Positions 5,437 through 58,739 of a stretch of DNA of 64,000 nt are shown piece by piece. The first letter of the stretch is position 1. Each line of letters begins with the position of its first letter. The translations under genes were made by a program, and so were the position numbers. The stretch is from a virus. The DNA lies in the IMG/VR virus record IMGVR_UViG_3300028392_000036, positions 78,902 through 142,901 of that record; one strand, written 5' to 3'. Under the pieces are notes generated by a model. The model saw nothing but the letters and a program-made list of their open reading frames with translations. It did no database searches and was not told the origin of the DNA.

Positions 5437-6018
5437 ATGATCATGCCAATAATTGAAACTACCCAAACTGAACAAACTCACACTCAAGCACTTGCTGACA
5501 CTGGCATGTATGTTTTTATGGGAGACGTGGATGATGAAAGTATCAAGCCAGTTGTGGAATGGATGCTGTATGAAAACTATGTGAGCAAGAAAAAGAAAAA
5601 AGAATTGTTACTCATGATTTGCTCCAATGGTGGAGACATGGGTGCGGCCTTTGCCCTAATTGATGTAATGATGAGCAGCCAAATTCCAGTAAAAACTGTG
5701 GGCCTGGGAACCATTGCATCAGCAGGCTTGTTGATCTTTATCTCTGGCACTCACGGACGACGAGTTCTTACACCTAATACTTCAATTCTAAGCCATCAGT
5801 TCTCCTGGTACAACGAAGGCAAAGCACATGAGTTGTTTGCTACCATGCGTGAGTTTGAACTCACACAGGCTAGAATGATTGCACACTATGAATTGTGTAC
5901 AGGCCTGGGCCGGGAAGAAATACGCACGAACTTGTTGCCACCACAAGACGTTTGGTTATCAGCATCAGAAGCCCTGGCTCTGGGCATCTGCGATGACATC
6001 AGTGTGGTCAAGAGTTAA
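5437..6018 (+). CDS. Divergent ClpP-family serine protease
   Basis: ICSNGGD, IASAG (Ser), SHQ (His), QDVWL (Asp), EALALGICD. Confidence 0.85.
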   Translation: MIMPIIETTQTEQTHTQALADTGMYVFMGDVDDESIKPVVEWMLYENYVSKKKKKELLLMICSNGGDMGAAFALIDVMMSSQIPVKTVGLGTIASAGLLIFISGTHGRRVLTPNTSILSHQFSWYNEGKAHELFATMREFELTQARMIAHYELCTGLGREEIRTNLLPPQDVWLSASEALALGICDDISVVKS

Positions 6019-6052: not shown

Positions 6053-7126
6053 TTATTTTTTGTTTTGCTTCAGGTATTCCGCATAACTCATAGCCCTCTG
6101 TCCTGTTGCAATATCACGTGGTTGTTTTAGCCAGGCATCCACAGTATCGAGTTTTGTTGGTGCAGGTAATGCTTGTGCGGGTGCAGTTGTTGGCAATTGC
6201 TCTGGTTTGTTGTCTGTGTCAACTTGATTTATTTTATCCAATGCCTTTTTACCTAGTCCTGCTAGTCGTGCAATATCTCCTGGAGAGGTGGTGTTATTTG
6301 GATCAATACCAGCGTCCCACATTTTATACATTTTCTCGCGTACCTGGTCCGGGCTTAGAGCATTTGATAATTTGCTTGGATCGATATATTTCTCGCTGTC
6401 TATCTTTACAGGTTTACCACCGCTAGTGGCTGTGAATTTCGTATATTTGTGAAAACGACTACCCGAAGGCGAACCATCACTTCTTATTATACTTTTGAGT
6501 TCTTCAACTGGGTCAGTTTCACGATTATCTCTAACATAGGTGTCCCCAATATTTCCATCAAAGTCGGTTTTGTAAATTACAATTTTGTTTTCTTCTGGTG
6601 TATTACTAGCATAATAATCATAAGGTTCACTGTCGTCTGGTTCCTTTAGTTTATTTTGATAACGCCAGTCGCTCGGGTCATCGGCTCTTGACCTGAATGA
6701 TGATTTTACTTTTGCAGGATTGATAGCGACACTTTGAAGATGTTTGATCAGTTGGGCAGCCGCCAGTTCGGGATTTTGTCGATACAAATCTAGTAAATCA
6801 AACATTTGATCTGTAGCAGATATGTCATCCCCCCTATCCTCATCGTCATAGTCAGGCTCTATATCTTCAAAACCCAAGGCGCCGGCCATGTCTTCCTGGG
6901 CATCAAACAGATCATCGTCGTCCTCTGCGTCCCATTGATCGAGATGATCTTGAATGCCTTTTAACAATGCAATTCCGGCTGGGATAGGCATAGCGGCAAC
7001 ACCTGCTGGTGTTGACAGCAGTTTAACTACAGGTGCAGGCACAGCCGCACTAGCCGCAAAACTTGCTAGACTTTTAAGGAACCCTCTACGAGTTGATTCG
7101 TTGATGTATTCTTTTAGGGTTTTCAT
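6053..7126 (-). CDS. Putative virion-internal protein: capsid-targeting-like leader followed by a twin-arginine motif
   Basis: Start moved to ATG 7126 (AAGGA RBS): MKTLKEYINE-STRRGFLKSLASFAASAAV. Confidence 0.75.
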   Translation of the reverse strand: MKTLKEYINESTRRGFLKSLASFAASAAVPAPVVKLLSTPAGVAAMPIPAGIALLKGIQDHLDQWDAEDDDDLFDAQEDMAGALGFEDIEPDYDDEDRGDDISATDQMFDLLDLYRQNPELAAAQLIKHLQSVAINPAKVKSSFRSRADDPSDWRYQNKLKEPDDSEPYDYYASNTPEENKIVIYKTDFDGNIGDTYVRDNRETDPVEELKSIIRSDGSPSGSRFHKYTKFTATSGGKPVKIDSEKYIDPSKLSNALSPDQVREKMYKMWDAGIDPNNTTSPGDIARLAGLGKKALDKINQVDTDNKPEQLPTTAPAQALPAPTKLDTVDAWLKQPRDIATGQRAMSYAEYLKQNKK

Positions 7127-7130
7127 TTTA

Positions 7131-8861
7131 TTATCCTTTTTTCTTGCGCCCTGTAGTCTTTTCATCAAAGTCGGCATCCTGAGCCTGTCTGGCTGCCTTG
7201 GCTCCCGGCCCAGTTAGTCTAGGTGCTTGTCCCACTTGATTGAGCTTTTCAATGTCCCCAATATCACTAGCATCTGCTGATGCTTCTTTAGAATCGCTAG
7301 GCTTGTTGGTTTTCTTTTTCTTCTTGCCCACGTCACCTGCATTGGGCGGCACTATCATGAAGCCCGGACGATTGTTACCTGCTATGTGGCTGGGTGCGTG
7401 ATAGTCAAATTCAAAGTCCAAGTTACCAAACGGCTTGCTGGTAATAACCAGTTGTCCTTCATTGTCAATGTCCACGTGACCCAGCTGGCAATTCAACTGT
7501 TTGATCATGTCGTTCATGATATCTTTGTATTGCTGTTGGTTAGGTCCACGGCGAATCATATACTCTATGCCCTTGCCTAAACTGTAGGCGATAATGTTGG
7601 CAGCACCATCCACATGATCATTGTCGTAACTGTATTTTCCTGCAATACCGGGTTTGGGCTTGTTGGCAGTGAGTCCCAGATAATAGTTTGAATCTTGTGG
7701 CATACCCACATTGCTACCCCATTGGCCGGCCTGTGTGGCAGGAAGTATCATTTGTAAAAATCCCTTGTAATCTAATTTTTCAACCAAGGGTTTTAATAGT
7801 TTTTTTAGTTCTGCCCAACTGTTGAATTCGCCGCCCAAGATGTCCACATAGCTGATATATTCGGGAGTTTGATTTCGATTGGCAGCCAAACAGATACGGT
7901 CAGTGACTGATCCTTCTTTTTTGGTGCTGGCCCAGATCTTGATAGCATCACGAAACATTTTTTGTTTGCCTTCGTCGGTCAAGGTCTGGTCGTATTCTTC
8001 TAGTAGGCTACCCAGACTGTTCATGCTGGTTCCTGAGCCGCCCAGCGCCTTGACACTGTAGCGTGTGTTGCCGCCCACAGTGACGTCGATCAACTTTTCG
8101 TTTCCCACTGGAAAACTAATTTCTTCGCTTTCGTTGGCTAATGCGATCGGAGCCAAGATCTCACCAAAGTCTTGACTGATCATGCCCAGGAATGGTTTTA
8201 CATATTCTAGGCTTTCGGGACTCAATTGTCCAGAGCCACGATTTTCAGCCAGCTCGACTAGCTCGGTCAGCGCCTTGGCCAAGTTTTCATTTTTGATTTT
8301 TGATTTGATAGCTTCTTTAGTGGCAGTGGCTAATTCTTTTCGGTCTGAGTACTCTCCGGCCAGGCCCAACTTGACTGGGGTAAGATCTTTGCGGTTCAAC
8401 ACTAGATCAACAGCGGCACCGGCATAGCTGGCAGCAGTCTTGACTCCACGTAGAACAAAGGTAAAAGTCTTGCCTTGACCGGTGTAACTGTAAATACTAA
8501 ATTGTCCACTAGATATGGCCTGATGGTCAGTTACAGGTGCTGAAACCAGCCCTAGCCCTTCTGCAGATTGCTCCAGTTGTGCTGGTGTTACGTCGCTGAT
8601 ACGCAGTACTGGTAATCGTCCAGATTTTTTGCTGTATTCTATTTTGTTTTTGGCATTTTCAACTCCGGCCTGCTCTAACCATTCTGACAATGCTGGAATC
8701 ATACTTTCGTAATCTGCTTTTTCGGCATAAACGGGCTGGGCAGGTTCTGCACCTGGGGGCTGTGCCGCAACTGCGGCATCTAATTCAGCTTCAAGTATCA
8801 TCATCTGTACCTTTGGTCCTTTGTCTGTAATTGATTCGAATAATTTTAGAGTATCGTGCAT
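7131..8861 (-). CDS. Large protein with a PD-(D/E)XK nuclease-like motif, possibly virion-internal
   Basis: DFGE...FP...LID...YSVK pattern; N-terminus MHDTLKLFE; TAAGTA upstream. Confidence 0.55.
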
Positions 8862-8890
8862 TTGCTTTTTTCCAAGAATAATGTTATACT
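8862..8890 (+). promoter_or_regulatory. Sigma70-type promoter for clpP
   Basis: TTGCTT-N17-TATACT with TGn. Confidence 0.6.
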
Positions 8891-8913
8891 TATCACATCA
8901 ACAAGGAGACCCC

Positions 8914-9504
8914 ATGCCAAACTTAGTACCTATTGTACTTGAACAAACAGCCAAAGGCGAACGCAGTTACGACATCTATAGCCGATTGCTAAAAGACCGT
9001 GTGATCATGCTGGACACAGAAGTGTCGGAACACACAGCCAGTTTACTGGTGGCACAGATGCTGTTTTTAGAAAGCGAAAATCCCGACAAGGATATCTCCC
9101 TATATATCAACTCGCCGGGCGGATCAGTAACAGCCGGTATGGCCATCTATGATACCATGCAGTTTATCCGGTGTGATGTGCAGACCATTGTGATGGGACA
9201 GGCCTGCTCCATGGGAAGTCTGCTAAGTACAGCAGGAGCCGCGGGCAAGCGTATGATTTTGCCCAATGCCCGACACATGATTCACCAACCATCAGGTGGT
9301 GCTCATGGACAAGCCACAGACATCCAAATCCAAGCAAGAGAAATTCAAAAGATGAAAGAGTATCTTACCAACATCTATGTCAAGCATAATTCAGCAGGTA
9401 AAACCTTTGGGCAGTTATCAGCAGATATGGAACGTGATTTCTTTATGTCAGCACAAGAAGCCTTGGACTATGGATTGGTAGACAAGATACTCGATAAACG
9501 TTAA
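8914..9504 (+). CDS. clpP: ATP-dependent Clp protease proteolytic subunit
   Basis: [44 protein letters not shown]; AAGGAG RBS. Confidence 0.97.
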
Positions 9505-14024: not shown

Positions 14025-15314
14025 TTAGAAAACTTGTTTCCAGCCGTCAACAGTTTTAGTCCACACTTTGTTGACTGTGGTCCATGTGTTTGCGGAGGTT
14101 TTGATTTTGATACTTTGAACTGGACTCCAGGTATTGCTTGCTGTTTTGACTCGTAAACCTGCAGTTGTAACTGCTTGATAGGTTTGTACACCATTGGCTT
14201 GTGATCCAAGCCCGGTTACAGGATCCCAGCCTGCGGTAGCGGCGTATCCATCCGGAATTTCATACGCATTATTACCATAAATTATATCATAAAAAGAACT
14301 GTAATTAGAATAAAATATTTTGGCTAGTGAGTTAGGGGGTGGTCGACGACCCCCATTTTTTGATATAAATCTAGCCATCATACCAGCCATAATGGGCGTA
14401 GCCGCACTGGTTCCTGCTATTCCAGACACTACAGCACCATTAAGATAAAATGCATATGATTGATATGGAGCGGCTATGTCAGGAATTCCGCGCCTAGGTA
14501 GTGCGGTTACTGGGCCAGTTATCCCAGTTGAACTATTATATGTTTGATATTTTTTTCCTATTTGTTGAGAAGGTATATTGATAATAGAACTTATGCCACC
14601 TCCAGACGGTGCGGCAGCCACCTCCGGATTAATTCTTGCATTATACTGATTTACATTTAATATTGTTCCGCCTACTGCTATCACATTGGCATTTGATGAT
14701 GGGTAGTTTACACCTTCAACATTAGTAAATTTTTGTTTTGACCCAGCATCACCAGTTGAGTTAAACACAGATATTCCTTGGGCGACTGCATTGGCTATTG
14801 GTACTGAAAGAAAGTCGCCAAGTCCTCCGTAGTTCTCATTGACTGACCAACTTTGGGTTATTACATCGCACCCGTCTGCTATAGCCGCATTGTAAATATT
14901 TGCCCACCTGTTTGCGAACTCGGAGTATGTTGATGCACTCAGCGGAGTTCCTATATAGATGTTTATAGTAGCATTTGGTACCATACCTGCTATACAGAAA
15001 ATATCTAAAGTATTTTCTGTACTAGCACCATCATTTGGATCAAAATTATTAGTTGCACCATTAACTGATTTAAAATTAATAGTAGGCGCGGTAATTCCTA
15101 AATCGGCCATTGATTTGTTTATGTCACTTTGTAGAAAACCGCCACCTAGACTCAGTATGCCAATCTTAACCCCTGCACCAGTGCTTGTGGGTATGTTGTA
15201 TGCTGTAGCAATCTGAGAAGGAATAAAATTCCCTGGCGCCGGAAGACTAGTTACATCAGGATCATATGATCCAAACTCCGTAATGTCTGGCTTAGGTAAA
15301 AATTCTAATTCCAT
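14025..15314 (-). CDS. S53 (sedolisin/kumamolisin) serine peptidase with a virion-type C-terminal module
   Basis: ENTLD, QSWS, STGDAG, AVGGT, RGIPD, GTSAATP, GWDPVTGLGS; no prodomain. Confidence 0.9.
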   Translation of the reverse strand: MELEFLPKPDITEFGSYDPDVTSLPAPGNFIPSQIATAYNIPTSTGAGVKIGILSLGGGFLQSDINKSMADLGITAPTINFKSVNGATNNFDPNDGASTENTLDIFCIAGMVPNATINIYIGTPLSASTYSEFANRWANIYNAAIADGCDVITQSWSVNENYGGLGDFLSVPIANAVAQGISVFNSTGDAGSKQKFTNVEGVNYPSSNANVIAVGGTILNVNQYNARINPEVAAAPSGGGISSIINIPSQQIGKKYQTYNSSTGITGPVTALPRRGIPDIAAPYQSYAFYLNGAVVSGIAGTSAATPIMAGMMARFISKNGGRRPPPNSLAKIFYSNYSSFYDIIYGNNAYEIPDGYAATAGWDPVTGLGSQANGVQTYQAVTTAGLRVKTASNTWSPVQSIKIKTSANTWTTVNKVWTKTVDGWKQVF

Positions 15315-15316
15315 AA

Positions 15317-16270
15317 TCAGAACGTCTGATACCAGATATCACCAATGTTACCTTGATTATCAAGTGGCGCCGCACTTGCTACCCAAATTTGCCTAGCAAC
15401 ATTGCTCATTACTGCTTTATTGGTTCCAGTTTGAAATTGACTCGCGGTCATTGCACCCAACGCAGACACAGTGCTCGAAGTTACAATGTTACCAGTGACA
15501 TTTAAATTTCCACCTGTGGTTATGTTGTTGGCAGTTACTAGAGCGGCAAATACAGTACCAGTAGTGCTAAAATTTCCACCTGACACATTGCCTCCAACAC
15601 TAACTGTATTAGGTGTAAAGGTACCTGATATTGATAAATTTTGTGCGGCTATATTACCGCCTGCCGATATTGATCCAGCAGTCCGCAAGTTGCCACCTGA
15701 AACATTTCCGGTAACTGAAGCATTACTACCCACATTCAAATTAGTAGTTACTATTGAATTACCTTGTACAGTACCCGACGTTAAAATTGTGCCAGTTGTA
15801 GTAATATTACCCGCGGTTATATTGCCTGATGCGGTAATAGTTGATGGAGATAAGACGCCAGTATAAGTTGGCAAGTAAGCCGCAACATTAGAGTTGGTAT
15901 AAGAACTACCAGCACTGATACCAGTCAGTTGTGAGCCATTGCCAAAAAAGTAGGTGCCCGTAACTGTTCCTGCTGATGATATTAGTCCTCTAGAAATTAA
16001 GTTACCACCAGTGACATTTCCAGTGGTTGAAACAACTGAAGGAGTATAACTTCCCCCGTTTATGTTACCACCAACTGTTATGTTGCCTGAAGCACTGATA
16101 TTTTGGATTGTTAGGTTTCTACTTCCAACTATGTTTCCGCCCGAAGTGAAAGATTGGGTAGCAGTGATATTTCCACCATATACTTCCGCTCCTGACACAT
16201 AAGTTCGAGCACTAACGAATGTAGCGGCAGTAACAGAGCTTTGGGATTGTACATTGGGAAATGATGACAT
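15317..16270 (-). CDS. Tail-fibre-like Gly/Asn/Thr repeat protein
   Basis: GNITGGN-type repeats, GNGSQLTG, C-terminal GNIGDIWYQ; TAAATA plus AAGGA. Confidence 0.75.
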   Translation of the reverse strand: MSSFPNVQSQSSVTAATFVSARTYVSGAEVYGGNITATQSFTSGGNIVGSRNLTIQNISASGNITVGGNINGGSYTPSVVSTTGNVTGGNLISRGLISSAGTVTGTYFFGNGSQLTGISAGSSYTNSNVAAYLPTYTGVLSPSTITASGNITAGNITTTGTILTSGTVQGNSIVTTNLNVGSNASVTGNVSGGNLRTAGSISAGGNIAAQNLSISGTFTPNTVSVGGNVSGGNFSTTGTVFAALVTANNITTGGNLNVTGNIVTSSTVSALGAMTASQFQTGTNKAVMSNVARQIWVASAAPLDNQGNIGDIWYQTF

Positions 16271-16300
16271 ACGCGGTCCTTTATTATATTTATGCGGCCA

Positions 16301-16325
16301 CAAGAAAGCCCCTTTCGGGGCTTTC
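16301..16325 (-). terminator. Rho-independent terminator
   Basis: Minus strand GAAAGCCCC-GAAA-GGGGCTTTC-TT. Confidence 0.75.
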
Positions 16326-16330
16326 ATTTT

Positions 16331-18543: not shown

Positions 18544-19494
18544 TTAGGCCTTGATCATATCGTCAACCAACTGTGGGCTGAAGATATCACGATACTTGTC
18601 GTATAGTGGTTGAGTCTTTTGTTTGAGCTTGGCAATTTCTGCTTCGGCAAAACGGTGATAGCTGATGCCTTTGCGCTCATGCAAATCAGTGTCAGCTTCA
18701 ATTTGGTCAGCTTCGTTCACAGTCCATGAACGCTCTAGTTTGGCCACGTGAGCCGACGCCTGAGTCATGGCCTGTTGTTGTTCTGGAGTCAAACTGTTGA
18801 AGAAGTCATTGTTGATCAAAATAGTTGTGAGGAACATGCTGTGATCAGTTCTGGCAATGTGTGTGAGACCTTGCTTGTAGGCTTCGACATCGTAGCGTGG
18901 CAGGGTGGTTTCCACAGTGCCTTTGGCCTTGACCAAGTTGTTGCGATCATCACTCATTGCGGCTGTGGCAGGAACAACTGTGCAACCTAATGCACGAGCA
19001 GTGTCCACACGCACAGGATTCAGAGTTGATACGCAGGTCAGTTTCACAAAGTCTTCACTGGTGGTAACTTCTTGATCCGAAGCAAACACACGGAAGCCAC
19101 CTGAGTAGGTGAATGCCAGACCGCGTACTGCAGATGTTTCTTGTATCTTGCTCAGCAACTTCTTGCCAATTGCGCCATCCAATACTCTGGAGGCGTGATC
19201 ATGATCTTTGAACAGGTAAGGCAGTTCAAGAGCAAAGAAATCTGGATTGTACCAAGAACCCACCCAGCGTGTTTCAACTTGGGTAACTTCGGCATCGCCA
19301 GCATTGATCATGGTCAACGGGTGTACTTTGGCAGTTGAAAACTTCTTGGAATACTCTTCCGAAGTGTAAATTTCAACTTGGATCGAGTCCTGTGTCAATT
19401 CACGAATCTTTTGGTTAAATGCCTGGGCTGTGCGAATAAAAAGCTCAACAGGTTCGTGATCTACTATCCAACGGATTGTGCGGGTTTGGCTCAT
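18544..19494 (-). CDS. TRAP transporter substrate-binding protein (DctP-like), no signal peptide
   Basis: LELPYLFKD.DHA.RVLDG.IG, GLAFTYSGGFR, FFNSLTPEQQ; AGGAG RBS before ATG 19494. Confidence 0.85.
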   Translation of the reverse strand: MSQTRTIRWIVDHEPVELFIRTAQAFNQKIRELTQDSIQVEIYTSEEYSKKFSTAKVHPLTMINAGDAEVTQVETRWVGSWYNPDFFALELPYLFKDHDHASRVLDGAIGKKLLSKIQETSAVRGLAFTYSGGFRVFASDQEVTTSEDFVKLTCVSTLNPVRVDTARALGCTVVPATAAMSDDRNNLVKAKGTVETTLPRYDVEAYKQGLTHIARTDHSMFLTTILINNDFFNSLTPEQQQAMTQASAHVAKLERSWTVNEADQIEADTDLHERKGISYHRFAEAEIAKLKQKTQPLYDKYRDIFSPQLVDDMIKA

Positions 19495-19564
19495 ATGGTT
19501 CTCCTGAGTTTGTGATATGATGTACACTTTATTTATGTTCGCAAGCAGATCACCCGTATTTCGC

Positions 19565-19593
19565 TTGACCAATAATTCCCAATTTGCTATAAT
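19565..19593 (+). promoter_or_regulatory. Sigma70-type promoter, leaderless
   Basis: TTGACC-N17-TATAAT-N6-ATG. Confidence 0.9.
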
Positions 19594-19599
19594 TAGGGC

Positions 19600-20733
19600 A
19601 TGAAACACATACTTGCACTGATTAGTACTTTGGTTTTAACTGCCTGCGGCGGCGGAGGTGGCGGAGGTGGCGGCGAGCCCAGTAGCGCCACAACAGTTAA
19701 GACGCAACCGTTTTCTTGTGTCGCTCCGCAATCGCAAAGCAATAGATATCGAGCGGCAACGTTTGATGTGCGTAGGGATGATATTGGCCGAACCGCAGAA
19801 GGTCACAATATCACCAGTTTTGCCGCAGTCAAACTCATGATAGATCGTGCCAAGTGTGTGGGTTTTGACACAGCAATTTTTGAAACCAATATCCCTATTG
19901 ATATTACAACGGGTCTGGTAAGAACCGATCAACCTATCCCGGTTGATTTTTGGCGATATGTTTCCTATGCCAAAAGTATAGGACTACGTGTGGCAGTACG
20001 GCCCATTCCTGTGAACTATGTTGATGACAACACTCTCACTGGTGATACAGTTGGGTTATCAGTTTCGCAGGCACTAAACAGTGTCAAAATCTTTGAACAA
20101 AATCTAGCGGTGCAGGCCCAAAATGCCGGCGTGGACATTTTCTACGTGGGGATTTTGAACTACGGAATTGATAATGCCACCTACAATACCGAATGGCAGG
20201 CAATTGTGGATGCAGTAAAATCTGTTTATACCGGCAAGTTAGCCTACACAACCTGTTTGCTTTGTACTGACACAGTTGTTTGGGGCAAAGTGGACATGGT
20301 AGGGATAGAAACCTCAACAGGTAATACTGTGGTCAGTGCCGCCGCTGTACCAAAAATACAAGCCCTGGCCCGCAGTTACAACAAACCTATTATGATAGAT
20401 AATGTGTACATTTATGCAACACCACCATCATATGCCAGTAACTCACTGTGGAACTCAGTAAACTCAGGTAGTGTCAGTAGTTTTCTACCAGATTATGTTG
20501 AACAGGCAAGAAAGTTCAACGAATTTTTTAGTTATATGACCTTGTTGAAATCTGATATTCAAGGCTTTGCGATCGGGCAATACATGCCATGGCTACAGAA
20601 TGCCAACATCCAATCACCGGTCACAAACATAGAAACTCAGTTCAAAATATTTGACACCATAGGCTTTTCGCTGTATAATAACATTCAAGCTCAAACTACC
20701 ATTCAATCATATTTGAGCAAACCGTGGAATTGA
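19600..20733 (+). CDS. Lipoprotein with GH113-like TIM-barrel domain
   Basis: Lipobox LTAC, poly-Gly linker; YAKSIGLRVAVRP, WQAIVDAVKSVYTGKLAY, YNKPIMI. Confidence 0.65.
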   Translation: MKHILALISTLVLTACGGGGGGGGGEPSSATTVKTQPFSCVAPQSQSNRYRAATFDVRRDDIGRTAEGHNITSFAAVKLMIDRAKCVGFDTAIFETNIPIDITTGLVRTDQPIPVDFWRYVSYAKSIGLRVAVRPIPVNYVDDNTLTGDTVGLSVSQALNSVKIFEQNLAVQAQNAGVDIFYVGILNYGIDNATYNTEWQAIVDAVKSVYTGKLAYTTCLLCTDTVVWGKVDMVGIETSTGNTVVSAAAVPKIQALARSYNKPIMIDNVYIYATPPSYASNSLWNSVNSGSVSSFLPDYVEQARKFNEFFSYMTLLKSDIQGFAIGQYMPWLQNANIQSPVTNIETQFKIFDTIGFSLYNNIQAQTTIQSYLSKPWN

Positions 20734-40059: not shown

Positions 40060-43000
40060 ATGAGTCAACCAGTTTGGATTACCCCTGTAGGTAGTTTGGG
40101 AACCATACCCGAAGGTATATTTTATCAAAATACACTGTTGGTAGTTGCGGGCGCACTGCCCAACACCCCTACCTGTACGGCTACCACAGCAGGCACCAAC
40201 ATCATCACCTGTACCAGTACTGAAGGGCTGTATCCAGACCTCAATGTTGTGTTTAGCGGCAATGTATTTGGTGGTGTTGATCCTGCCATAAGATATTTTG
40301 TATTAGATGTGATCAGCGACACAGAGTTTAGAATCACCGACACAGAGTTTAGTGCTATTCCTGTTGCATTAACAACTGACACTGGCACAATGACCGCAGA
40401 ATTCAGACAGCACGTTTACTACACCCTGATTGCTGGTAATTTACCACCGGGTATCCAAGTTTCAGACAATGGATTGATTGTGGGTGTTCCTAGTGCATTG
40501 GCAAGTATACAAGGCGTACCGTTTGATGTCAATAGAGATGTAACCAGCAAATTTACCATTAGAGCGTACACACAAACTGCCACTGGCACAGTTGATCGCA
40601 TTAGAGATCGAACATTCACACTCACTGTAATCAACACCAATGCGCCAGTGTTTACTTCCCCCGGTGACCTTGGAACATATTATGATGGTGACAGATTAGA
40701 TATTCAACTTGGCATTACCAACGTTGGACCAAACAATCCTGCTGTGGTCAGTTTGATAGGCGGTCAATTGCCAGGTGGAGTTTATCTTAGTCCCACAGGA
40801 TTAATATCGGGCTACATTCAACCGTTTGCCAACGTCGATCGACCGCCCGGTTACGATCTCACTCCCGAAGATGTATATCCGTATGACTTTGTTACCAGTG
40901 CTATAAACAAAAACTATCAGTTTACTCTGCAAGTTACAGATGGCACCTCAACTGATATAAAAACATTTAGCTTTTTTGTATATGACCGTTCTACACTCAA
41001 TGCCAGTACCACACAAATCACAGCAGACAATAGTGTGATCACAGCCGACGAAGGTGAAGAACGCAAACCGTTTATTGTAAATTCATTACCATCAAACTTG
41101 GGTACTGTGCGTAGTGACAACTACTATGCACATCAGTTTATTGCCAATGACTACGACACTCCTGATCTCAAATTTGCCATCAGTGTGAACGTGGGATCAG
41201 GACTTCCTCCGGGACTAGGAATTGATCCCAATTCAGGTTGGTACTATGGTTATATCCCCGATCAAGGTGTGACTGAAGTTGAATACAGTTTCAATATTGT
41301 TACCTACCAGGCTGACTTTGTAGGAACACCGATTACTTGTACCGCTACTGCATTCAATACCAATATTATTACCTGCGATAGCACATCACAGATCAATCCA
41401 GGGCAACCGATTGTGTTCACTGGCACCAGCTTTGGAGGTATCACTGCTTCACCAACGCAGGTGTATTATGTTCTCTCAGTAGAAAGCGACACAGAGTTTA
41501 CTATAACCAACAACCTTGGTAGCAATAGTGCGGTAACATTAACAACATCAACTGGTTCCTTGGCAGCCAACTTGATCGTTGCAAGTAGCCCATATCCATT
41601 TACGCTAACAGTTAATGGGGCCGTCAATGCCGAAGTAATTTGGTCTACACCTGCTGATCTCGGGTACATCGAAAACGGTGCCACAAGTATGTTGGTAATA
41701 CAGGCAGAGAACACAGGAGGCCGTGCTCTAAAGTATCGTCTCAAGCCAGGGGCCGGTCCTGCACAATTACCATATCCCTATGTGCCTGGAGTATACAATC
41801 TACTACCACAAGGGCTGAAATTATTAGACTCTGGAGAAATATCTGGGCGAGTAACCTTTAATACCTTTGCCATTGACCTAGGGTCAACAACATTTGATGC
41901 CACGCAATCTGTAGTAAGAAATATTTCTATTCAAGAAACCACATTTGATAGTACTTTTACATTTACCGTGAATGCCTACGCAGAAGATTCTCAACAGGTA
42001 CTTTACAAAGTAAATTCAGTTGAGGTGCTTGATGGCGGATCAGGATACAGTGCAGTAACCACTCCAGTGTTGACATTTAACACACCAATAGGAGCAACAG
42101 CAATTCAGGCACAAGCAGGCACTGTCACTGTGAGTGGTGGTAAGATAACTGCTGTAGCAGTCGAAAATGGTGGTAATGGATACACTAGTCCTGCTATCTT
42201 GACAGTCACTGAAGGGTTCGGCGGATCAGGGGCAGTACTACAATCCATAATGAAACCTACCGGTACCCGAGACGTTGTGAGTGTGGACAAAACATTTACC
42301 GTACAGGTTCGACGTGTTTACAACAAGCCTTATCAGAACCTGTTGATTGAAGCCATGCCACCGGCTAATGATCGTGCCACAATAACAGAGTTGTTGAACA
42401 ACCAAGAAATCTTTGTGCCAGATTATATCTACAGAATAGATGATCCATACTTTGGCAAGAGTGAACGAGTGATATACCAACACGCATTTGGTCTTGCCCC
42501 CGATACGTTAGAAACTTATGTACTCAGTTTGTATGAAAATCACTACTGGAAAAATCTTGTGTTGGGCGAAATTGATACTGCTCAGGCTATAGATCCTATC
42601 ACAGGCGAAGTGGTATATGAAGTTGTATACAGCAAAATCATAGATGACCTTGTGAATGCATCGGGGGTCAGCGTGAGCAAGATTGTAAATCTTCCTTATT
42701 CCATCACGGATCCAGGTGATGGCAGCACACAACTCACACAGGTGTATCCTAATAGCCTAGTTGACATGAGAGATCAAGTGATTGACGTGGTTGGACAAAT
42801 ATCAACCAAACTTCCACTGTGGATGACTTCAAAACAAACCAATGGAAGAGTGTTAGGCTTTACTCCAGCCTGGGTCATGTGTTACACCAAACCTGGAAGA
42901 AGCCGACAAATTGCTTACTATGTACAAACACAATTCCAAGGACAATTAAACACAGTAGACTTCAAGGTTGATCGATATATTCTAGATCATACACTAAGTC

Positions 43001-44226
43001 GTAACTGGGATACTGTAACTCAAAACTGGACACCAAAACCTAGTTTGACCACATTTGATAGATACGGATCAGGATTACTTCCATTCATTGGATATGTTGA
43101 TATAGCCACACGTTTGGCCTACTCTGATGTTAATCAACAGACATTGGATTATATTACTAGCCTTGGCGGACTTGATGGAATACTATCTAACATCAACGGA
43201 AACACTTTAATCTTTACCAAGCAGGAATACTACACTGACTACGCCACTGCCGATGATGCTTGGCAAGACTATACTACTCTTTATGACGGTGGATTATATG
43301 ATCAAGGTGATGCAACAGATCCATCTGCACCGCCACCACAAAATATCGACTACCCTGTTGAGTCATTTGACGACAGTTATACTATTCCAGGTGGATACAC
43401 TTATGACTGTACTAACACTTATACCAGCACTGATTATATCAAAGCTTCAACTACTGCGGGTATGCAGGTAAATGATCCTGTGTGGTTTACTGGTAGCACC
43501 TTTGGTGGAATACTTACTACCAATGCCGCTAATGGACTGACTCAAATATACTATATTACCGAAGTGGTCAAAACTACTTGTACTATTACTGCGGCAGGAA
43601 CAAACTTAATAACTTGTGCTAGTGCCACATATTTAAATACCAATGATGTGGTGTGGTTTACCGGTACTACATTTGGAGGTGTAGAAGCATTGACCGCAAG
43701 CAACACTATTCAACAATATTACGTGACCAAAATATCATCTACAACATTCAAGATTTCACTAACACAAGGTGGAGGATTTGTTACTTTATCAAATGCAACA
43801 GGATCAATGAATGTAAACACGTCATACTTTACTGTAAGCGAAACACAAGGTGGTACTAATACCACCTTGACCACAGCATCGGGTGGTATGCTTGTGAACT
43901 TTGGCAACACAAGAATGGCCGTCTACACCATATCGGTGGACCCTGTGACTACACTTGTGACTCTTACTCCCACAACACTTACTGCACAAACCCAATATGT
44001 ACAAATCACTCGCGGACGCAGATATAAAGGCGCTCAATTGTATTACCCGACAAGCCCGGCACAAGGATATACATTGATCAACTGGCTCCCAGTACCAGAA
44101 TCTAGCTCAAGTGAAACCACATTTGACGCGGCAAGCATGGCGTTTGAACAACCAGTTGATATGTACGATCCCACCGATCGGGATGATAAATATCTGGTAT
44201 TTCCCAAAGCCAATATATTGGTATAA
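40060..44226 (+). CDS. Large baseplate/tail structural protein with Ig-like domains
   Basis: 1388 aa; repeated GxLPxGL...G.I.G motifs, GSGY modules. Confidence 0.75.
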   Translation: MSQPVWITPVGSLGTIPEGIFYQNTLLVVAGALPNTPTCTATTAGTNIITCTSTEGLYPDLNVVFSGNVFGGVDPAIRYFVLDVISDTEFRITDTEFSAIPVALTTDTGTMTAEFRQHVYYTLIAGNLPPGIQVSDNGLIVGVPSALASIQGVPFDVNRDVTSKFTIRAYTQTATGTVDRIRDRTFTLTVINTNAPVFTSPGDLGTYYDGDRLDIQLGITNVGPNNPAVVSLIGGQLPGGVYLSPTGLISGYIQPFANVDRPPGYDLTPEDVYPYDFVTSAINKNYQFTLQVTDGTSTDIKTFSFFVYDRSTLNASTTQITADNSVITADEGEERKPFIVNSLPSNLGTVRSDNYYAHQFIANDYDTPDLKFAISVNVGSGLPPGLGIDPNSGWYYGYIPDQGVTEVEYSFNIVTYQADFVGTPITCTATAFNTNIITCDSTSQINPGQPIVFTGTSFGGITASPTQVYYVLSVESDTEFTITNNLGSNSAVTLTTSTGSLAANLIVASSPYPFTLTVNGAVNAEVIWSTPADLGYIENGATSMLVIQAENTGGRALKYRLKPGAGPAQLPYPYVPGVYNLLPQGLKLLDSGEISGRVTFNTFAIDLGSTTFDATQSVVRNISIQETTFDSTFTFTVNAYAEDSQQVLYKVNSVEVLDGGSGYSAVTTPVLTFNTPIGATAIQAQAGTVTVSGGKITAVAVENGGNGYTSPAILTVTEGFGGSGAVLQSIMKPTGTRDVVSVDKTFTVQVRRVYNKPYQNLLIEAMPPANDRATITELLNNQEIFVPDYIYRIDDPYFGKSERVIYQHAFGLAPDTLETYVLSLYENHYWKNLVLGEIDTAQAIDPITGEVVYEVVYSKIIDDLVNASGVSVSKIVNLPYSITDPGDGSTQLTQVYPNSLVDMRDQVIDVVGQISTKLPLWMTSKQTNGRVLGFTPAWVMCYTKPGRSRQIAYYVQTQFQGQLNTVDFKVDRYILDHTLSRNWDTVTQNWTPKPSLTTFDRYGSGLLPFIGYVDIATRLAYSDVNQQTLDYITSLGGLDGILSNINGNTLIFTKQEYYTDYATADDAWQDYTTLYDGGLYDQGDATDPSAPPPQNIDYPVESFDDSYTIPGGYTYDCTNTYTSTDYIKASTTAGMQVNDPVWFTGSTFGGILTTNAANGLTQIYYITEVVKTTCTITAAGTNLITCASATYLNTNDVVWFTGTTFGGVEALTASNTIQQYYVTKISSTTFKISLTQGGGFVTLSNATGSMNVNTSYFTVSETQGGTNTTLTTASGGMLVNFGNTRMAVYTISVDPVTTLVTLTPTTLTAQTQYVQITRGRRYKGAQLYYPTSPAQGYTLINWLPVPESSSSETTFDAASMAFEQPVDMYDPTDRDDKYLVFPKANILV

Positions 44227-56408: not shown

Positions 56409-56931
56409 GGGTCTGCAATATAAAGACCTAGAGGGCATGATGAAGCCCACGCTTCACGTGGACGAATTTGCGGCCAAAATGGGTGATGACGATGATATCA
56501 TTGTGCTATCATTCTTTGTGCGTGATTTAACAGCCGCCAAAGACCTAGTGGGATGGTTTGAAAAGGGCTATGACTTTGTGTTGGATGCCGATCGTAGCCC
56601 AGGTGAAATCAAGCCCAGCCGTTATCTAGTGTACTTAGAACTGCGTCGCCGTAGATCAGCACCACAGCACGTACAAACGCTGTTGGATGATTTATCGACA
56701 CTGACAGAATTTGCCCCAGAAGAATGGCGATTCAAATACGATGGTCGAGACCATGAATGGTCTGAAAAGACCTTTAGTGAACTGGTGCCATTAACTCCGG
56801 ATTCTTATAGAGCCACGCACGAAGATGACCTAAATGATGTGCGCACAGCGGCGGGTATTGCACCCAAAAAGATTCACGAAAAACTGCCGGATGATGTTAA
56901 ATCATTGCAGAGCATGGCCGGGATACGATAA
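56356..56931 (+). CDS. Conserved late protein
   Basis: LLSEGL, VDEF..KMG, FEKGY.FVLDAD; ends LQSMAGIR. Confidence 0.75.
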   Translation: MLNNPFNSNQPLPALLSEGLQYKDLEGMMKPTLHVDEFAAKMGDDDDIIVLSFFVRDLTAAKDLVGWFEKGYDFVLDADRSPGEIKPSRYLVYLELRRRRSAPQHVQTLLDDLSTLTEFAPEEWRFKYDGRDHEWSEKTFSELVPLTPDSYRATHEDDLNDVRTAAGIAPKKIHEKLPDDVKSLQSMAGIR

Positions 56932-58739
56932 TGAAGATAAACGACGTACTAGTAGAATTTGCACCCGCAGGTGGCGGAGGTTCAGGCAACTACTTTCAAG
57001 CCTTGGCCTCGGCCTGGTACAATGGTACCTTTGACACAGGCAGCCTGCAAAAAGGCATCAAGAGTCAAGAAGACGTGGAACGCTTGTTGAATCGCGGCAT
57101 TGTGTGCCCAGACGGCAAGACTCGTAAACTGCATATTGATTACAACTCAGACTTTGACGGTGTGGAAATCTACAGTGATGACTACTATGAATACGGTGAT
57201 CACGATGACACCATAGACAGTCGCACAGGCCAAAAATGGGGGCCATATGACTTTATGGCATTCTCAGATGATGAATTAAGCGAAGGTATTAATGAAAAGT
57301 TGGGTGCCAACAGACCCAGTCTAGGCAACCGACGCGATCAATTCCGGAACCTGCACAAGATGCGTAAACAACGTGGGCTAAATGAATTCTCAGCCGATGG
57401 TGGCGACAGTGGTGGCGACAGTGGTGGCGAAGACGATGCACTACGCAAATACGCTCAAATGTGGTGGACCGGAGACGAAGCAACGCAAATGCAAATTGAA
57501 GCCGCACTGGCCCGTATGGGCTGGGAAATCGGTGAGGACGAAGGCGGCTACGACAACGGCGGTGTGTTTGTGGTACGTGCTGGCGATGAAAATGGCAAAA
57601 GTTATACATCATGGCCCGCAGAAGATTTGTCAGAAGGTGTGGCGGAAGGCTCGTTAGATGAAAAGTCAACAAGCCAGGCACAGTTCCGCACAATGGCGGC
57701 AGCCGCACACAATCCTGAATTTGCTCGTAAAGTAGGCATCAAACAGAGTGTGGCACGAGAGTTTAATCAGGCCGATCGAGGGCAAGACTACAAGTCATTG
57801 CCAAAAAAGGCCACCGAAGGCGCTCCGGTCACAGCAACTCCGGGATCCATTGAATCCGGTGGAGCGGTGGACAATTTCAAACAACAAATGACCAACAATA
57901 CTGAAATTGCTTACAAAAAAGGCATGGCGGAAGCCGCTTTTATGCACAGCGGACAAAGTGCTCCATTCAGTGGTGTTGGTGGCACTGCAAAATACGGGTA
58001 TGGCCTAAACGATATACGAAATGCAAGGGCAAAAAAACCAGAAATTGATGCCAATCTGAGAAAATTTAAAGCATGGATCAACGGTGGCCCAAAGCCAGTA
58101 GATATAAATGATGTAATTCAATCTGTTGAAGTATATTTTACAAATATCAAACCGCCGTCAGATGCTAGAGTTTCAACGGCATTTAATCAAATATTAAATT
58201 CACAAGGCCAAGGTTGGGTCGCTAATAAAAATCAAGCCATGCTATTAAATCCATCATTAGACGCAGCCATTAGAGAACCATTGCCCAATCAACGTGCTGG
58301 AAATAATCAAAACGCAGATGGGTACCCTATCGCTCCTTCAAGGCCAATGGCTGGACAAGCGGCACAACCAGCACAAGCGGCACAACCAGCACAACCAGCA
58401 CAAGCGGCACAACCAGCACAACCAGCACAAGCGACATCAGCACAAGCACCAGCGGCAGCGGCAAATTCAGCAAATCCTGTAGGTAAGAAATTTAATACTG
58501 CAAATGCTACAACTGTTACTCCGAAACCAATAACAAGACCAGCATTACCAATGCGAGAACAAGATACTGTAGAAAGCAAAAGCAAGCCCGCAGAAAAAGA
58601 AGCCGACTATGGTGATGATTATCAGCAAATGGTTTTGCGCTTGAAAAAACTGGCCGGTGCAGGTCCATTAAAGACTGTGTACGATCCGCAAAAGCGTGTG
58701 TATCGAAACATGCCCACAGCACAACAGCCCAAAAAATGA
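56931..58739 (+). CDS. Modular putative virion-internal polyprotein
   Basis: MKINDVLVE leader; unrelated blocks joined at LSE/INE/LNE/VAE/LDE/ATE/MAE. Confidence 0.7.
   Translation: MKINDVLVEFAPAGGGGSGNYFQALASAWYNGTFDTGSLQKGIKSQEDVERLLNRGIVCPDGKTRKLHIDYNSDFDGVEIYSDDYYEYGDHDDTIDSRTGQKWGPYDFMAFSDDELSEGINEKLGANRPSLGNRRDQFRNLHKMRKQRGLNEFSADGGDSGGDSGGEDDALRKYAQMWWTGDEATQMQIEAALARMGWEIGEDEGGYDNGGVFVVRAGDENGKSYTSWPAEDLSEGVAEGSLDEKSTSQAQFRTMAAAAHNPEFARKVGIKQSVAREFNQADRGQDYKSLPKKATEGAPVTATPGSIESGGAVDNFKQQMTNNTEIAYKKGMAEAAFMHSGQSAPFSGVGGTAKYGYGLNDIRNARAKKPEIDANLRKFKAWINGGPKPVDINDVIQSVEVYFTNIKPPSDARVSTAFNQILNSQGQGWVANKNQAMLLNPSLDAAIREPLPNQRAGNNQNADGYPIAPSRPMAGQAAQPAQAAQPAQPAQAAQPAQPAQATSAQAPAAAANSANPVGKKFNTANATTVTPKPITRPALPMREQDTVESKSKPAEKEADYGDDYQQMVLRLKKLAGAGPLKTVYDPQKRVYRNMPTAQQPKK
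58355..58433 (+). repeat. 9-nt tandem repeat (AQP/AQA)
   Basis: GCACAACCA and GCACAAGCG units. Confidence 0.9.

What the first reader, a model, noticed from the sequence alone, without database searches (positions are those of the whole stretch)
6053..7126. Tat signal hidden behind a capsid-targeting propeptide
Seen: the N-terminus is MKTLKEYINE followed directly by STRRGFLK and a hydrophobic Ala-rich stretch. Known: the T4 IPIII capsid-targeting sequence is MKTYQEFIAE, cut after E by gp21, and the Tat consensus is (S/T)RRxFLK. Inference: a two-address protein, packed into the head, matured to expose a Tat signal, injected, then exported to the periplasm or used to block TatBC. I know of no description of such routing.
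Basis: partly seen in the sequence, partly recalled or inferred. Interest (0 to 1): 0.8.

Follow-up and report, generated by a model that had tools for sequence, protein, structure and literature searches.

The report
Tat export signal behind capsid leader
An uncultured giant lake phage encodes a protein whose T4-style "pack me into the head" leader ends in a protease-type cut site two residues before a bacterial Tat export signal; the same layout recurs, often in mid-protein, in dozens of related phage protein families, which suggests (untested) that proteins injected with the DNA are sent on to the host periplasm.

Summary
Window 6053-7126 (minus strand) encodes a 357-aa acidic protein. Residues 1-10 match the T4 capsid-targeting sequence at 6 of 10 positions and end in I-x-E. 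Residues 12-18 fit the Tat consensus and are followed by 16 uncharged Ala-rich residues and a Lys.

The leader type heads 7 of 186 genes of this 143-kb fragment of a giant phage of about 350 kb (0.2 expected). RRGFL is invariant in 108 homologues, always 2-8 residues after a hydrophobic-x-E.

A profile search found 57 clusters, each under 50% identical to the others, with this layout. In 26 the signal is internal (residues 46-644). Four polyproteins carry two signals. Several internal sites pass Pfam's TAT_signal cut-off. One relative fuses the domain to LysM+GH19; another has LysM+SLT as the next gene.

Best reading, confidence 0.4: head cargo is cut by a gp21-type protease, which exposes a Tat signal that acts after injection.

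Not shown: packaging, cleavage, export, or an S77 protease in this lineage (the nearest cultured relative, PA5oct, has one). The target's own Tat HMM scores are below cut-off. "Hidden" is unsupported, because a 12-residue n-region is normal for Tat signals.

This scan noted the same layout before on other phage DNA. I found no paper on it.

The parts
6053..7126 (-). ORF of 357 aa (P0001), pI 4.7; the protein under study
   Evidence: 111 metagenomic homologues; no Pfam or PHROG family
7097..7126 (-). Residues 1-10: capsid-targeting-type leader ending in I-N-E
   Evidence: 6/10 identical to the T4 CTS; the same leader class heads 7 of 186 genes of the record against 0.2 expected
7073..7093 (-). 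Residues 12-18: twin-arginine consensus (T-R-R-G-F-L-K)
   Evidence: RRGFL invariant in 108 homologues; TIGR01409 11.5 bits for this protein (cut-off 16.7), relatives up to 31.8 bits on PF10518
7025..7072 (-). Residues 19-34: weakly hydrophobic Ala-rich h-region of 16 uncharged residues
   Evidence: mean Kyte-Doolittle 1.52; its sequence drifts in distant clusters while staying uncharged and Ala/Gly-rich
6992..7024 (-). Residues 35-45: c-region-like stretch with Lys35, Pro40 and small residues at 42 and 44; a possible signal-peptidase site after Ala44 or Ala45
   Evidence: read from the sequence; Lys kept even in the most distant homologues P0111 and P0112; cleavage is inferred only
6692..6985 (-). 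Residues 48-145: amphipathic helix, Asp-rich acidic run and helical NPE..AA.QL unit; a module that also occurs alone
   Evidence: found without the RR signal, between GVAE-type joints, in P0138, P0140, P0142, P0145, P0146 and P0148; pLDDT 76-93
6242..6619 (-). Residues 170-295: alpha/beta insert domain present in only part of the family
   Evidence: alignment A1; pLDDT 81-95; no fold match, best Z 3.9
6152..6277 (-). Residues 284-325: C-terminal ARLAGL...ALPAPT motif shared with more than 100 other phage protein clusters
   Evidence: profile positions about 180-345 matched in most of the 150 listed representatives; function unknown
7131..8861 (-). Upstream partner gene, 576 aa, with its own leader ending in L-F-E; its stop lies 4 nt before the target ATG. 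It sits directly upstream in all five relatives examined.
   Evidence: no Pfam, PHROG, NCBIfam or PDB match
8887..8892 (-). TAAGTA motif starting 31 nt before the partner gene's ATG; candidate promoter element of the two-gene unit
   Evidence: TAAGTA lies upstream of 13 genes against 1.6 expected, TAAATA upstream of 32 against 3.2; sequence; expression class not determined

Best explanation
The protein is a head-cargo protein with two addresses in series. Step 1 (inferred): the 10-residue leader loads it into the prohead, as the T4 CTS does. Step 2 (inferred): a gp21-type (S77) prohead protease cuts after Glu10. The new N-terminus is then Ser-Thr followed by the twin-arginine motif, a weakly hydrophobic h-region and a basic c-region. 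Step 3 (inferred): the matured protein enters the next host with the DNA, where the host Tat system exports it to the periplasm or anchors it in the inner membrane. Shown here: the sequence anatomy; the strict coupling of a hydrophobic-x-E site to a Tat-type signal in many divergent phage proteins, including internal and doubled signals; and the repeated association of this domain family with peptidoglycan hydrolases, which act in the periplasm. The passenger's own activity is unknown. My guess is a periplasmic adaptor or regulator acting with a cell-wall hydrolase.
For: The leader is 6/10 identical to the T4 CTS, which loads any fused protein and is cut once by the head protease. The same leader class heads 7 of 186 genes here against 0.2 expected, on unrelated proteins without RR motifs. 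In 106 of 108 homologues a hydrophobic-x-E lies 2-8 residues before the invariant RRGFL. Different leader types sit on nearly identical downstream modules. A profile search found 57 clusters, each under 50% identical to the others, with the same layout. In 26 of them the signal is internal, at residues 46-644. 37 of the 57 hit PF10518 at E<=0.01. Sites that pass Pfam's cut-off of 22.7 bits include internal ones: P0150 641-661 (27.1), P0151 532-551 (26.7), P0174 (25.9), P0172 (23.9) and P0226 712-732 (23.0). Four polyproteins carry two such signals, each after its own site. As one uncut chain this is topologically inconsistent; as cut pieces it makes sense. P0122 joins a Pol-beta-type nucleotidyltransferase-like module (by motif only), presumably cytoplasmic, to the Tat-signal module across a GVAEGSLNE joint. 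P0124 carries the signal, this domain, LysM and GH19 in one piece, and in L002 the next gene is LysM+SLT. The nearest cultured relative by clamp loader (51.6%), PA5oct, has a T4-type head module with an S77 protease at 85 bits.
Against: There are no data on virions, cleavage or export. No S77 protease, gp23 or portal was found in this 41%-complete record or in five IMG/VR relatives. Two complete S77-bearing giant phage genomes lack the family. The target's own HMM scores are below cut-off: TIGR01409 11.5 against 16.7, and no PF10518 hit at E<=0.01. Within the close family the h-region is almost invariant in sequence, which is unusual for signal peptides, and AlphaFold models residues 20-60 as confident helices. 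The protein is acidic (pI 4.7), unlike the basic T4 internal proteins. A 12-residue n-region would not mask a Tat signal, so export of the uncut protein late in infection would compete with packaging. Why a phage would send a pre-made wall hydrolase partner from the cytoplasm to the periplasm is unexplained.
Confidence: 0.4

Rival explanations
1. It is an ordinary Tat-exported or Tat-anchored envelope protein made during infection and never packaged. The first 12 residues are simply the n-region of the signal, and look like the leader because these phages shuffle N-terminal pieces. It may act late, with a wall hydrolase, in lysis or envelope remodelling.
For: RR at residues 13-14 with a 12-residue n-region is normal for Tat signals (established knowledge). 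Neighbouring genes encode a lipoprotein and a Sec-signal protein, in this window and in relatives. The family is linked to LysM+SLT and LysM+GH19. Bacterial wall amidases AmiA and AmiC are Tat substrates (established knowledge). The protein is acidic, unlike T4 internal proteins. There is no virion evidence.
Against: The leader class is 35-fold enriched and sits on unrelated proteins without RR motifs, so it has a role of its own. 26 of 57 clusters have the signal 46-644 residues inside a chain, and four chains have two signals, which needs cutting. Every signal is preceded by a hydrophobic-x-E.
Confidence: 0.3
2. The RR-plus-Ala-rich stretch is not a Tat signal. It is a conserved helix of a folded domain, or a membrane-inserting segment of an ejected protein that enters the inner membrane without Tat (as the T7 core proteins do). 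The RRGFLK match reflects a different binding constraint.
For: The target's own Tat HMM scores are below cut-off. Residues 19-60 are nearly invariant in sequence across the close family. AlphaFold gives pLDDT 87-93 helices there. One variant, P0170, lacks the RR yet keeps the rest of the domain.
Against: In distant clusters only RRGFLK stays fixed, while the h-region changes sequence but keeps length, lack of charge and a following Pro/Gly and basic residue. Several end in textbook A-x-A sites. Several members pass Pfam's TAT_signal cut-off, up to 31.8 bits. In P0170 the RR and the hydrophobicity are lost together. The hydrophobicity (1.52) is low for a Sec or YidC anchor.
Confidence: 0.15
3. 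It is a decoy that binds and blocks the host TatBC receptor, shutting down host export after injection.
For: Only the presence of a consensus Tat motif.
Against: The passengers are diverse and include wall hydrolase domains, which fits transport rather than blockage. A blocker would not need many different passengers or signal-peptidase-type sites.
Confidence: 0.05

Closest known systems
Phage T4 internal proteins IPI, IPII, IPIII and Alt: capsid-targeting sequence removed by the gp21 (S77) prohead protease
   Same: A 10-residue N-terminal leader of the same pattern (6/10 identical) ends in I-x-E. The leader is shared by several unrelated genes of one phage. The nearest cultured relative has a T4-type head module with an S77 protease.
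   Different: T4 cargo is basic and stays in the cytoplasm; none is known to carry an export signal. Here the cut would expose a Tat signal, the protein is acidic, and relatives are long polyproteins. Packaging and the protease are not shown for this lineage.
Bacterial Tat signal peptides (PF10518, TIGR01409), e.g. on TorA and SufI and on the wall amidases AmiA and AmiC
   Same: It has the S/T-R-R-x-F-L-K motif, a weakly hydrophobic h-region and a basic c-region. Relatives pass the Pfam cut-off. Passengers linked to peptidoglycan hydrolysis parallel AmiA and AmiC.
   Different: It is phage-encoded. It is always preceded by a protease-type site. It is often internal or doubled in a polyprotein. 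This protein's own scores are below cut-off.
Bipartite transit peptides of thylakoid-lumen proteins (e.g. the 23-kDa and 17-kDa subunits of the oxygen-evolving complex). A stromal-targeting part is cut off by the stromal peptidase and leaves a twin-arginine lumen signal (from memory).
   Same: The logic is the same: two addresses in series, with the first removed by a protease in the first compartment so that a Tat signal takes over in the next step.
   Different: There is no homology. Here the first compartment would be a phage capsid, and the second step would take place in another cell. This is an analogy only.
Ejected internal core proteins of podophages (T7 gp14, gp15, gp16; gp16 carries an SLT domain)
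   Same: They are virion-carried proteins that end up in the host envelope and are linked to a lytic transglycosylase. A LysM+SLT gene follows the target's homologue in L002.
   Different: T7 proteins leave through the tail directly into the envelope and use no host export signal. There is no sequence similarity.
SAR (signal-arrest-release) endolysins such as P1 Lyz and phage 21 R
   Same: They have an N-terminal, Gly/Ala/Ser-rich, weakly hydrophobic segment on a phage protein tied to wall hydrolysis.
   Different: SAR domains use Sec and need no RR motif. Here RRGFL is invariant, and this protein has no catalytic domain.

Membership tests
T4-type capsid-targeting sequence / gp21-processed head cargo | N-terminal leader of about 10 residues ending in (L/I)-x-E, resembling the T4 CTS | tested here: met
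   Residues 1-10 against the CTS quoted in PMC8442874: 6/10 identical, both end in I-x-E
T4-type capsid-targeting sequence / gp21-processed head cargo | Same leader on several unrelated proteins of the same phage | tested here: met
   7 of 186 N-termini against 0.2 expected
T4-type capsid-targeting sequence / gp21-processed head cargo | S77 (gp21-type) prohead protease encoded by the same phage | tested here: inconclusive
   PF03420 is absent from the 41%-complete record and from five partial relatives. The record holds no head genes at all. The nearest cultured relative, PA5oct, has it at 85 bits.
T4-type capsid-targeting sequence / gp21-processed head cargo | Late expression together with head genes | tested here: inconclusive
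   TAAGTA lies 31 nt before the operon. This motif and TAAATA are enriched upstream of genes, but their timing class is unknown.
T4-type capsid-targeting sequence / gp21-processed head cargo | Presence in virions with the N-terminus cut after Glu | not testable with these tools
   No cultured phage carries a homologue
Tat signal peptide (PF10518 / TIGR01409) | Consensus S/T-R-R-x-F-L-K | tested here: met
   Residues 12-18; RRGFL invariant in 108 homologues
Tat signal peptide (PF10518 / TIGR01409) | Uncharged, weakly hydrophobic h-region of 13 or more residues after the motif, followed by a basic c-region | tested here: met
   16 uncharged residues, mean Kyte-Doolittle 1.52, then Lys35
Tat signal peptide (PF10518 / TIGR01409) | Score at or above the curated HMM cut-off | tested here: inconclusive
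   This protein scores 11.5 bits on TIGR01409 (cut-off 16.7) and has no PF10518 hit at E<=0.01. Close homologues score 17-22 bits. Divergent relatives pass at 23.0-31.8 bits against 22.7.
Tat signal peptide (PF10518 / TIGR01409) | Signal-peptidase site (small residues at -3 and -1) 20-35 residues after RR | tested here: inconclusive
   G-V-A|A at residues 42-45 is possible. Textbook A-x-A sites occur in relatives P0193, P0174, P0208 and P0226. No predictor was available.
Tat signal peptide (PF10518 / TIGR01409) | Tat- and RR-dependent export; host with TatABC | not testable with these tools
   The host is unknown. ClpP's best bacterial matches are Gamma- and Betaproteobacteria at 60-68%. No TatA in the record.
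SAR endolysin | Muralytic catalytic domain behind the weakly hydrophobic N-terminal segment | tested here: not met
   No catalytic domain by Pfam, PHROGs, NCBIfam, PDB sequence or fold search. Only the relative P0124 carries GH19.

The most novel reading that the evidence does not exclude
Uncultured T4-related giant phages run a two-step protein delivery route. Cargo and cargo polyproteins are loaded into the capsid by a leader and cut there at hydrophobic-x-E joints. The pieces that now start with a Tat signal, among them peptidoglycan hydrolases, are injected with the DNA and re-exported by the host's own Tat system to the periplasm. This would be a viral counterpart of bipartite thylakoid targeting, and the first case of injected phage proteins using a host export pathway.
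Probability: 0.35. Interest if true: 0.85.

Novelty: new variant of a known kind. Interest (0 to 1): 0.65.

Why it matters
T4 shows that phages can inject ready-made proteins, but every known case acts in the cytoplasm. If the route holds, phages can place pre-made effectors in the periplasm or inner membrane within moments of infection, before any phage gene is expressed. Possible uses are exclusion of rival phages, wall remodelling or countering envelope-based defences. It would also give a natural, portable two-address tag (leader, cut site, Tat signal) for phage engineering. It would explain why hundreds of uncultured phage polyproteins carry "buried" Tat signals that genome annotation pipelines cannot interpret. 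The claim can be tested directly with standard E. coli Tat reporters and the T4 CTS packaging system.

Tried and rejected
- The passenger has no assignable function. Pfam, PHROGs, NCBIfam, PDB sequence profile, Foldseek (PDB), VIA-align wide and ESM Atlas all gave nothing.
- No cultured phage has a homologue of the target or of two divergent relatives. The DNA of the locus has no near match in phages.
- I tried to show an S77 protease in the same record as the family, and failed:
  - It is absent from G000 and five IMG/VR relatives.
  - G000 has no homologues of PA5oct head or tail genes apart from a fibre-like piece.
  - Two complete S77-bearing giant phage genomes lack the family and any RRGFLK.
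  - Three IMG/VR contigs with the FNPxRRGFLK pattern lack S77 but are only 5-26% complete.
  - The flanks of the polyprotein genes P0226, P0164, P0151 and P0211 hold ferritin and DNA polymerase B, not head genes.
  - The long JGI contigs (331-358 kb) that carry P0059 could not be searched.
- Host prediction failed. The DctP gene found no bacterial relative, and the ClpP matches are not specific.
- The exact T4 late promoter TATAAATA is not enriched: 1 seen against 2.1 expected.
- PA5oct has no RRxFLK module beyond chance.
- Literature searches for Tat signals on phage cargo or endolysins found nothing relevant.
- A weak Hfq-like hit in the partner protein (E 0.01) was judged to be chance.
- I considered a spanin or holin role for the neighbouring genes but did not test it.

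Full report
THE GENE. The window is the right-hand 64 kb of a 142,901-bp IMG/VR virus record that CheckV rates 41% complete, so the phage is about 350 kb. The finding's ORF lies on the minus strand, from the ATG at 7126 to the stop at 6053-6055, and encodes 357 aa (P0001). An AGGA lies 9 nt upstream, and the stop of the preceding 576-aa gene is 4 nt before the ATG. The two leaders share 6 of 10 residues and the final I-x-E. After the motif come 16 uncharged residues (mean Kyte-Doolittle 1.52), then Lys35, Pro40 and small residues at 42 and 44. The whole protein is acidic, pI 4.7.

THE PHAGE. Neither the locus DNA nor the protein has a match in cultured phages. The record's clamp loader is 51.6% identical to that of Pseudomonas phage PA5oct, followed by Phosso, Atu_ph07 and SCTP-2. 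PA5oct is a T4-related jumbo phage (PMC7318152). It has a T4-type head module of portal, S77 protease (PF03420, 85 bits) and major head protein. The record itself contains no S77 protease, gp23 or other PA5oct head or tail homologue. Five partial IMG/VR relatives also lack the protease. So the protease that the model needs is inferred from relatives and is not shown for this lineage.

THE LEADER IS A REAL, PORTABLE ELEMENT. A pattern describing the leader (Met, a basic or Asn/His residue, 1-3 residues, a polar residue, two hydrophobic residues, x, Glu) matches 7 of 186 N-termini in the record. The rate of the same pattern at internal positions predicts 0.2. The other carriers are unrelated proteins without RR motifs: three tandem 125-aa paralogues, a 271-aa protein, a 602-aa polyprotein and a 67-aa ORF. 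A 54-residue module of that polyprotein is 57% identical to part of a gene annotated as virion structural protein in phages 121Q and PBECO4.

THE FAMILY. There are 111 homologues in metagenomes, on contigs of up to 358 kb. In all 108 that keep the N-terminus, RRGFL is invariant. In 106 of these, a hydrophobic-x-E lies 2-8 residues upstream; the other two are gene calls that begin at a Met just before RR. Leaders of at least five types sit in front of almost identical downstream sequence, so exchange happens exactly at this border. In several relatives the module is not N-terminal. It starts at residue 91-105 behind an 85-aa domain (P0094, P0096, P0106), at 282 (P0082) and at 541 (P0110), each time right after such a site. 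IMG/VR loci confirm intact ORFs of 834 and 1166 aa with the module inside or at the start.

THE WIDER PICTURE. A profile of the family, searched against 1.84 billion representative proteins, gave 469 hits. Among the best 150, 57 clusters (each under 50% identical to the others) carry RR-x-F-[LIVM] followed by at least 11 uncharged residues. All 57 have a hydrophobic-x-E within 2-11 residues upstream. In 26 the signal is internal, at residues 46-644. In these distant clusters the motif stays fixed. The h-region changes sequence but remains Ala/Gly-rich and uncharged, and is usually followed by Pro/Gly and a basic residue. Several end in textbook A-x-A sites. This is how signal peptides evolve.

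37 of the 57 match Pfam TAT_signal at E<=0.01. Scores above the curated cut-off of 22.7 bits occur at internal sites: P0150 641-661 (27.1), P0151 532-551 (26.7), P0174 (25.9), P0172 (23.9) and P0226 712-732 (23.0). They also occur near N-termini: P0133 (30.4) and P0167 (31.8). Four polyproteins have two such signals, each behind its own site. As one uncut chain, two N-in signals in series contradict each other topologically; as cut pieces they make sense. P0122 links a leader, a Pol-beta-type nucleotidyltransferase-like module (by motif only) and the Tat-signal module through GVAEG/LNE joints. That implies pieces bound for different compartments.

The target's own scores are below cut-off: TIGR01409 11.5 bits against 16.7, and no PF10518 hit at E<=0.01. 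Close homologues reach 16.6 bits on TIGR01409 and 17-22 bits on PF10518.

WHERE THE PASSENGER ACTS. No family, solved structure or fold matches the passenger. The AlphaFold model has mean pLDDT 70.8. Context helps. In a 331-kb contig the homologue is followed by a LysM+SLT gene, inside the same conserved block of radical-SAM gene, ClpP, partner gene, target and ClpP-like gene. P0124 carries the Tat-type signal, this domain, LysM and GH19 with no joint between residues 132 and 461. So two different wall-hydrolase types are tied to the family, which points to the periplasm. On the far side of the ClpP-like gene, in this window and in relatives, lie genes for a lipoprotein and a Sec-signal protein.

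READING. The anatomy and its recurrence are shown. Packaging, cutting and export are inferred. I give 0.4 to the serial-address model: leader into capsid, cut after Glu10, injection, Tat export or anchoring. I give 0.3 to an ordinary Tat substrate made during infection. For this particular gene that rival is hard to exclude, because a 12-residue n-region is normal and would not hide the signal. I give 0.15 to a non-Tat helix or membrane segment, and 0.05 to a TatBC blocker. The closest functional parallel is the bipartite transit peptide of thylakoid-lumen proteins, where removal of the first address exposes a twin-arginine signal (from memory, analogy only).

NOVELTY. Searches of the paper library for Tat signals on phage cargo, ejected proteins or endolysins found nothing relevant. 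Earlier notes of this scan describe the same layout in other uncultured T4-like phages. They agree with my reading but are unchecked AI notes, not independent evidence. I rate the finding a new variant of known kinds (T4 CTS cargo plus Tat signals), of real interest but unproven.

Noticed in passing
window 5437-6018 (+) and 8911-9504 (+): Two ClpP homologues, one divergent (99 bits) and one typical (270 bits), flank the two-gene unit. The arrangement is conserved in relatives L002, L005 and L006.
   Followed up: partly
window 7131-8861 (-): A 576-aa partner gene with its own leader (ending L-F-E) and a basic tail sits directly upstream of the target in all five relatives examined. No family, PDB or fold lead was found. 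It could be a protein carried along by the signal-bearing small partner (Tat 'hitchhiking'), which is pure speculation.
   Followed up: partly
P0001 residues 284-325 (window 6152-6277) and more than 100 clusters: A C-terminal motif (ARLAGL... ALPAPT... K.KEKVP, often followed by an ...ILKNAGLK tail) is shared by over a hundred otherwise different phage proteins. Its function is unknown.
   Followed up: no
homologues P0009, P0012, P0070, P0095-P0104: In the MRAREF-leader subfamily the residue right after the Glu is Met (…E-M-D/N-R-R…). An internal start there would make exactly the 'cut' form without a leader. Two gene calls, P0104 and P0107, start there.
   Followed up: no
P0170: One relative has lost the twin arginine (R-G-D in its place), and its former h-region now carries several charges. 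The motif and the hydrophobicity decayed together.
   Followed up: no
whole record G000; e.g. window 8887-8892 (-): TAAATA (32 genes against 3.2 expected) and TAAGTA (13 against 1.6) are strongly enriched within 60 nt upstream of start codons. The exact T4 late box TATAAATA is not.
   Followed up: partly
window 56931-58739 (+): Residues 245-298 of this leader-bearing 602-aa polyprotein are 57% identical to part of gp51, annotated as virion structural protein, of Escherichia phages 121Q and PBECO4.
   Followed up: partly
window 14025-16327 (-) and 40060-44226 (+): There is an S8/S53-type protease gene next to a bactofilin/FapA-like gene. A 1388-aa protein has an S8 peptidase region matching a protease of Atu_ph07 and Phosso. 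These are further phage proteases, and their targets are unknown.
   Followed up: no
window 18544-19608 (-): The phage encodes a DctP-type TRAP transporter solute-binding protein (109 bits). No close bacterial relative turned up in the genome collection scan.
   Followed up: partly
L092, L094, L180, L181: The polyproteins with one or two Tat-type signals sit in a conserved slot downstream of a ferritin-like gene (directly in three of the four loci, two genes away in L180). In L092 and L180 a DNA polymerase B gene lies a few genes further downstream. The contigs reach 281 kb.
   Followed up: no
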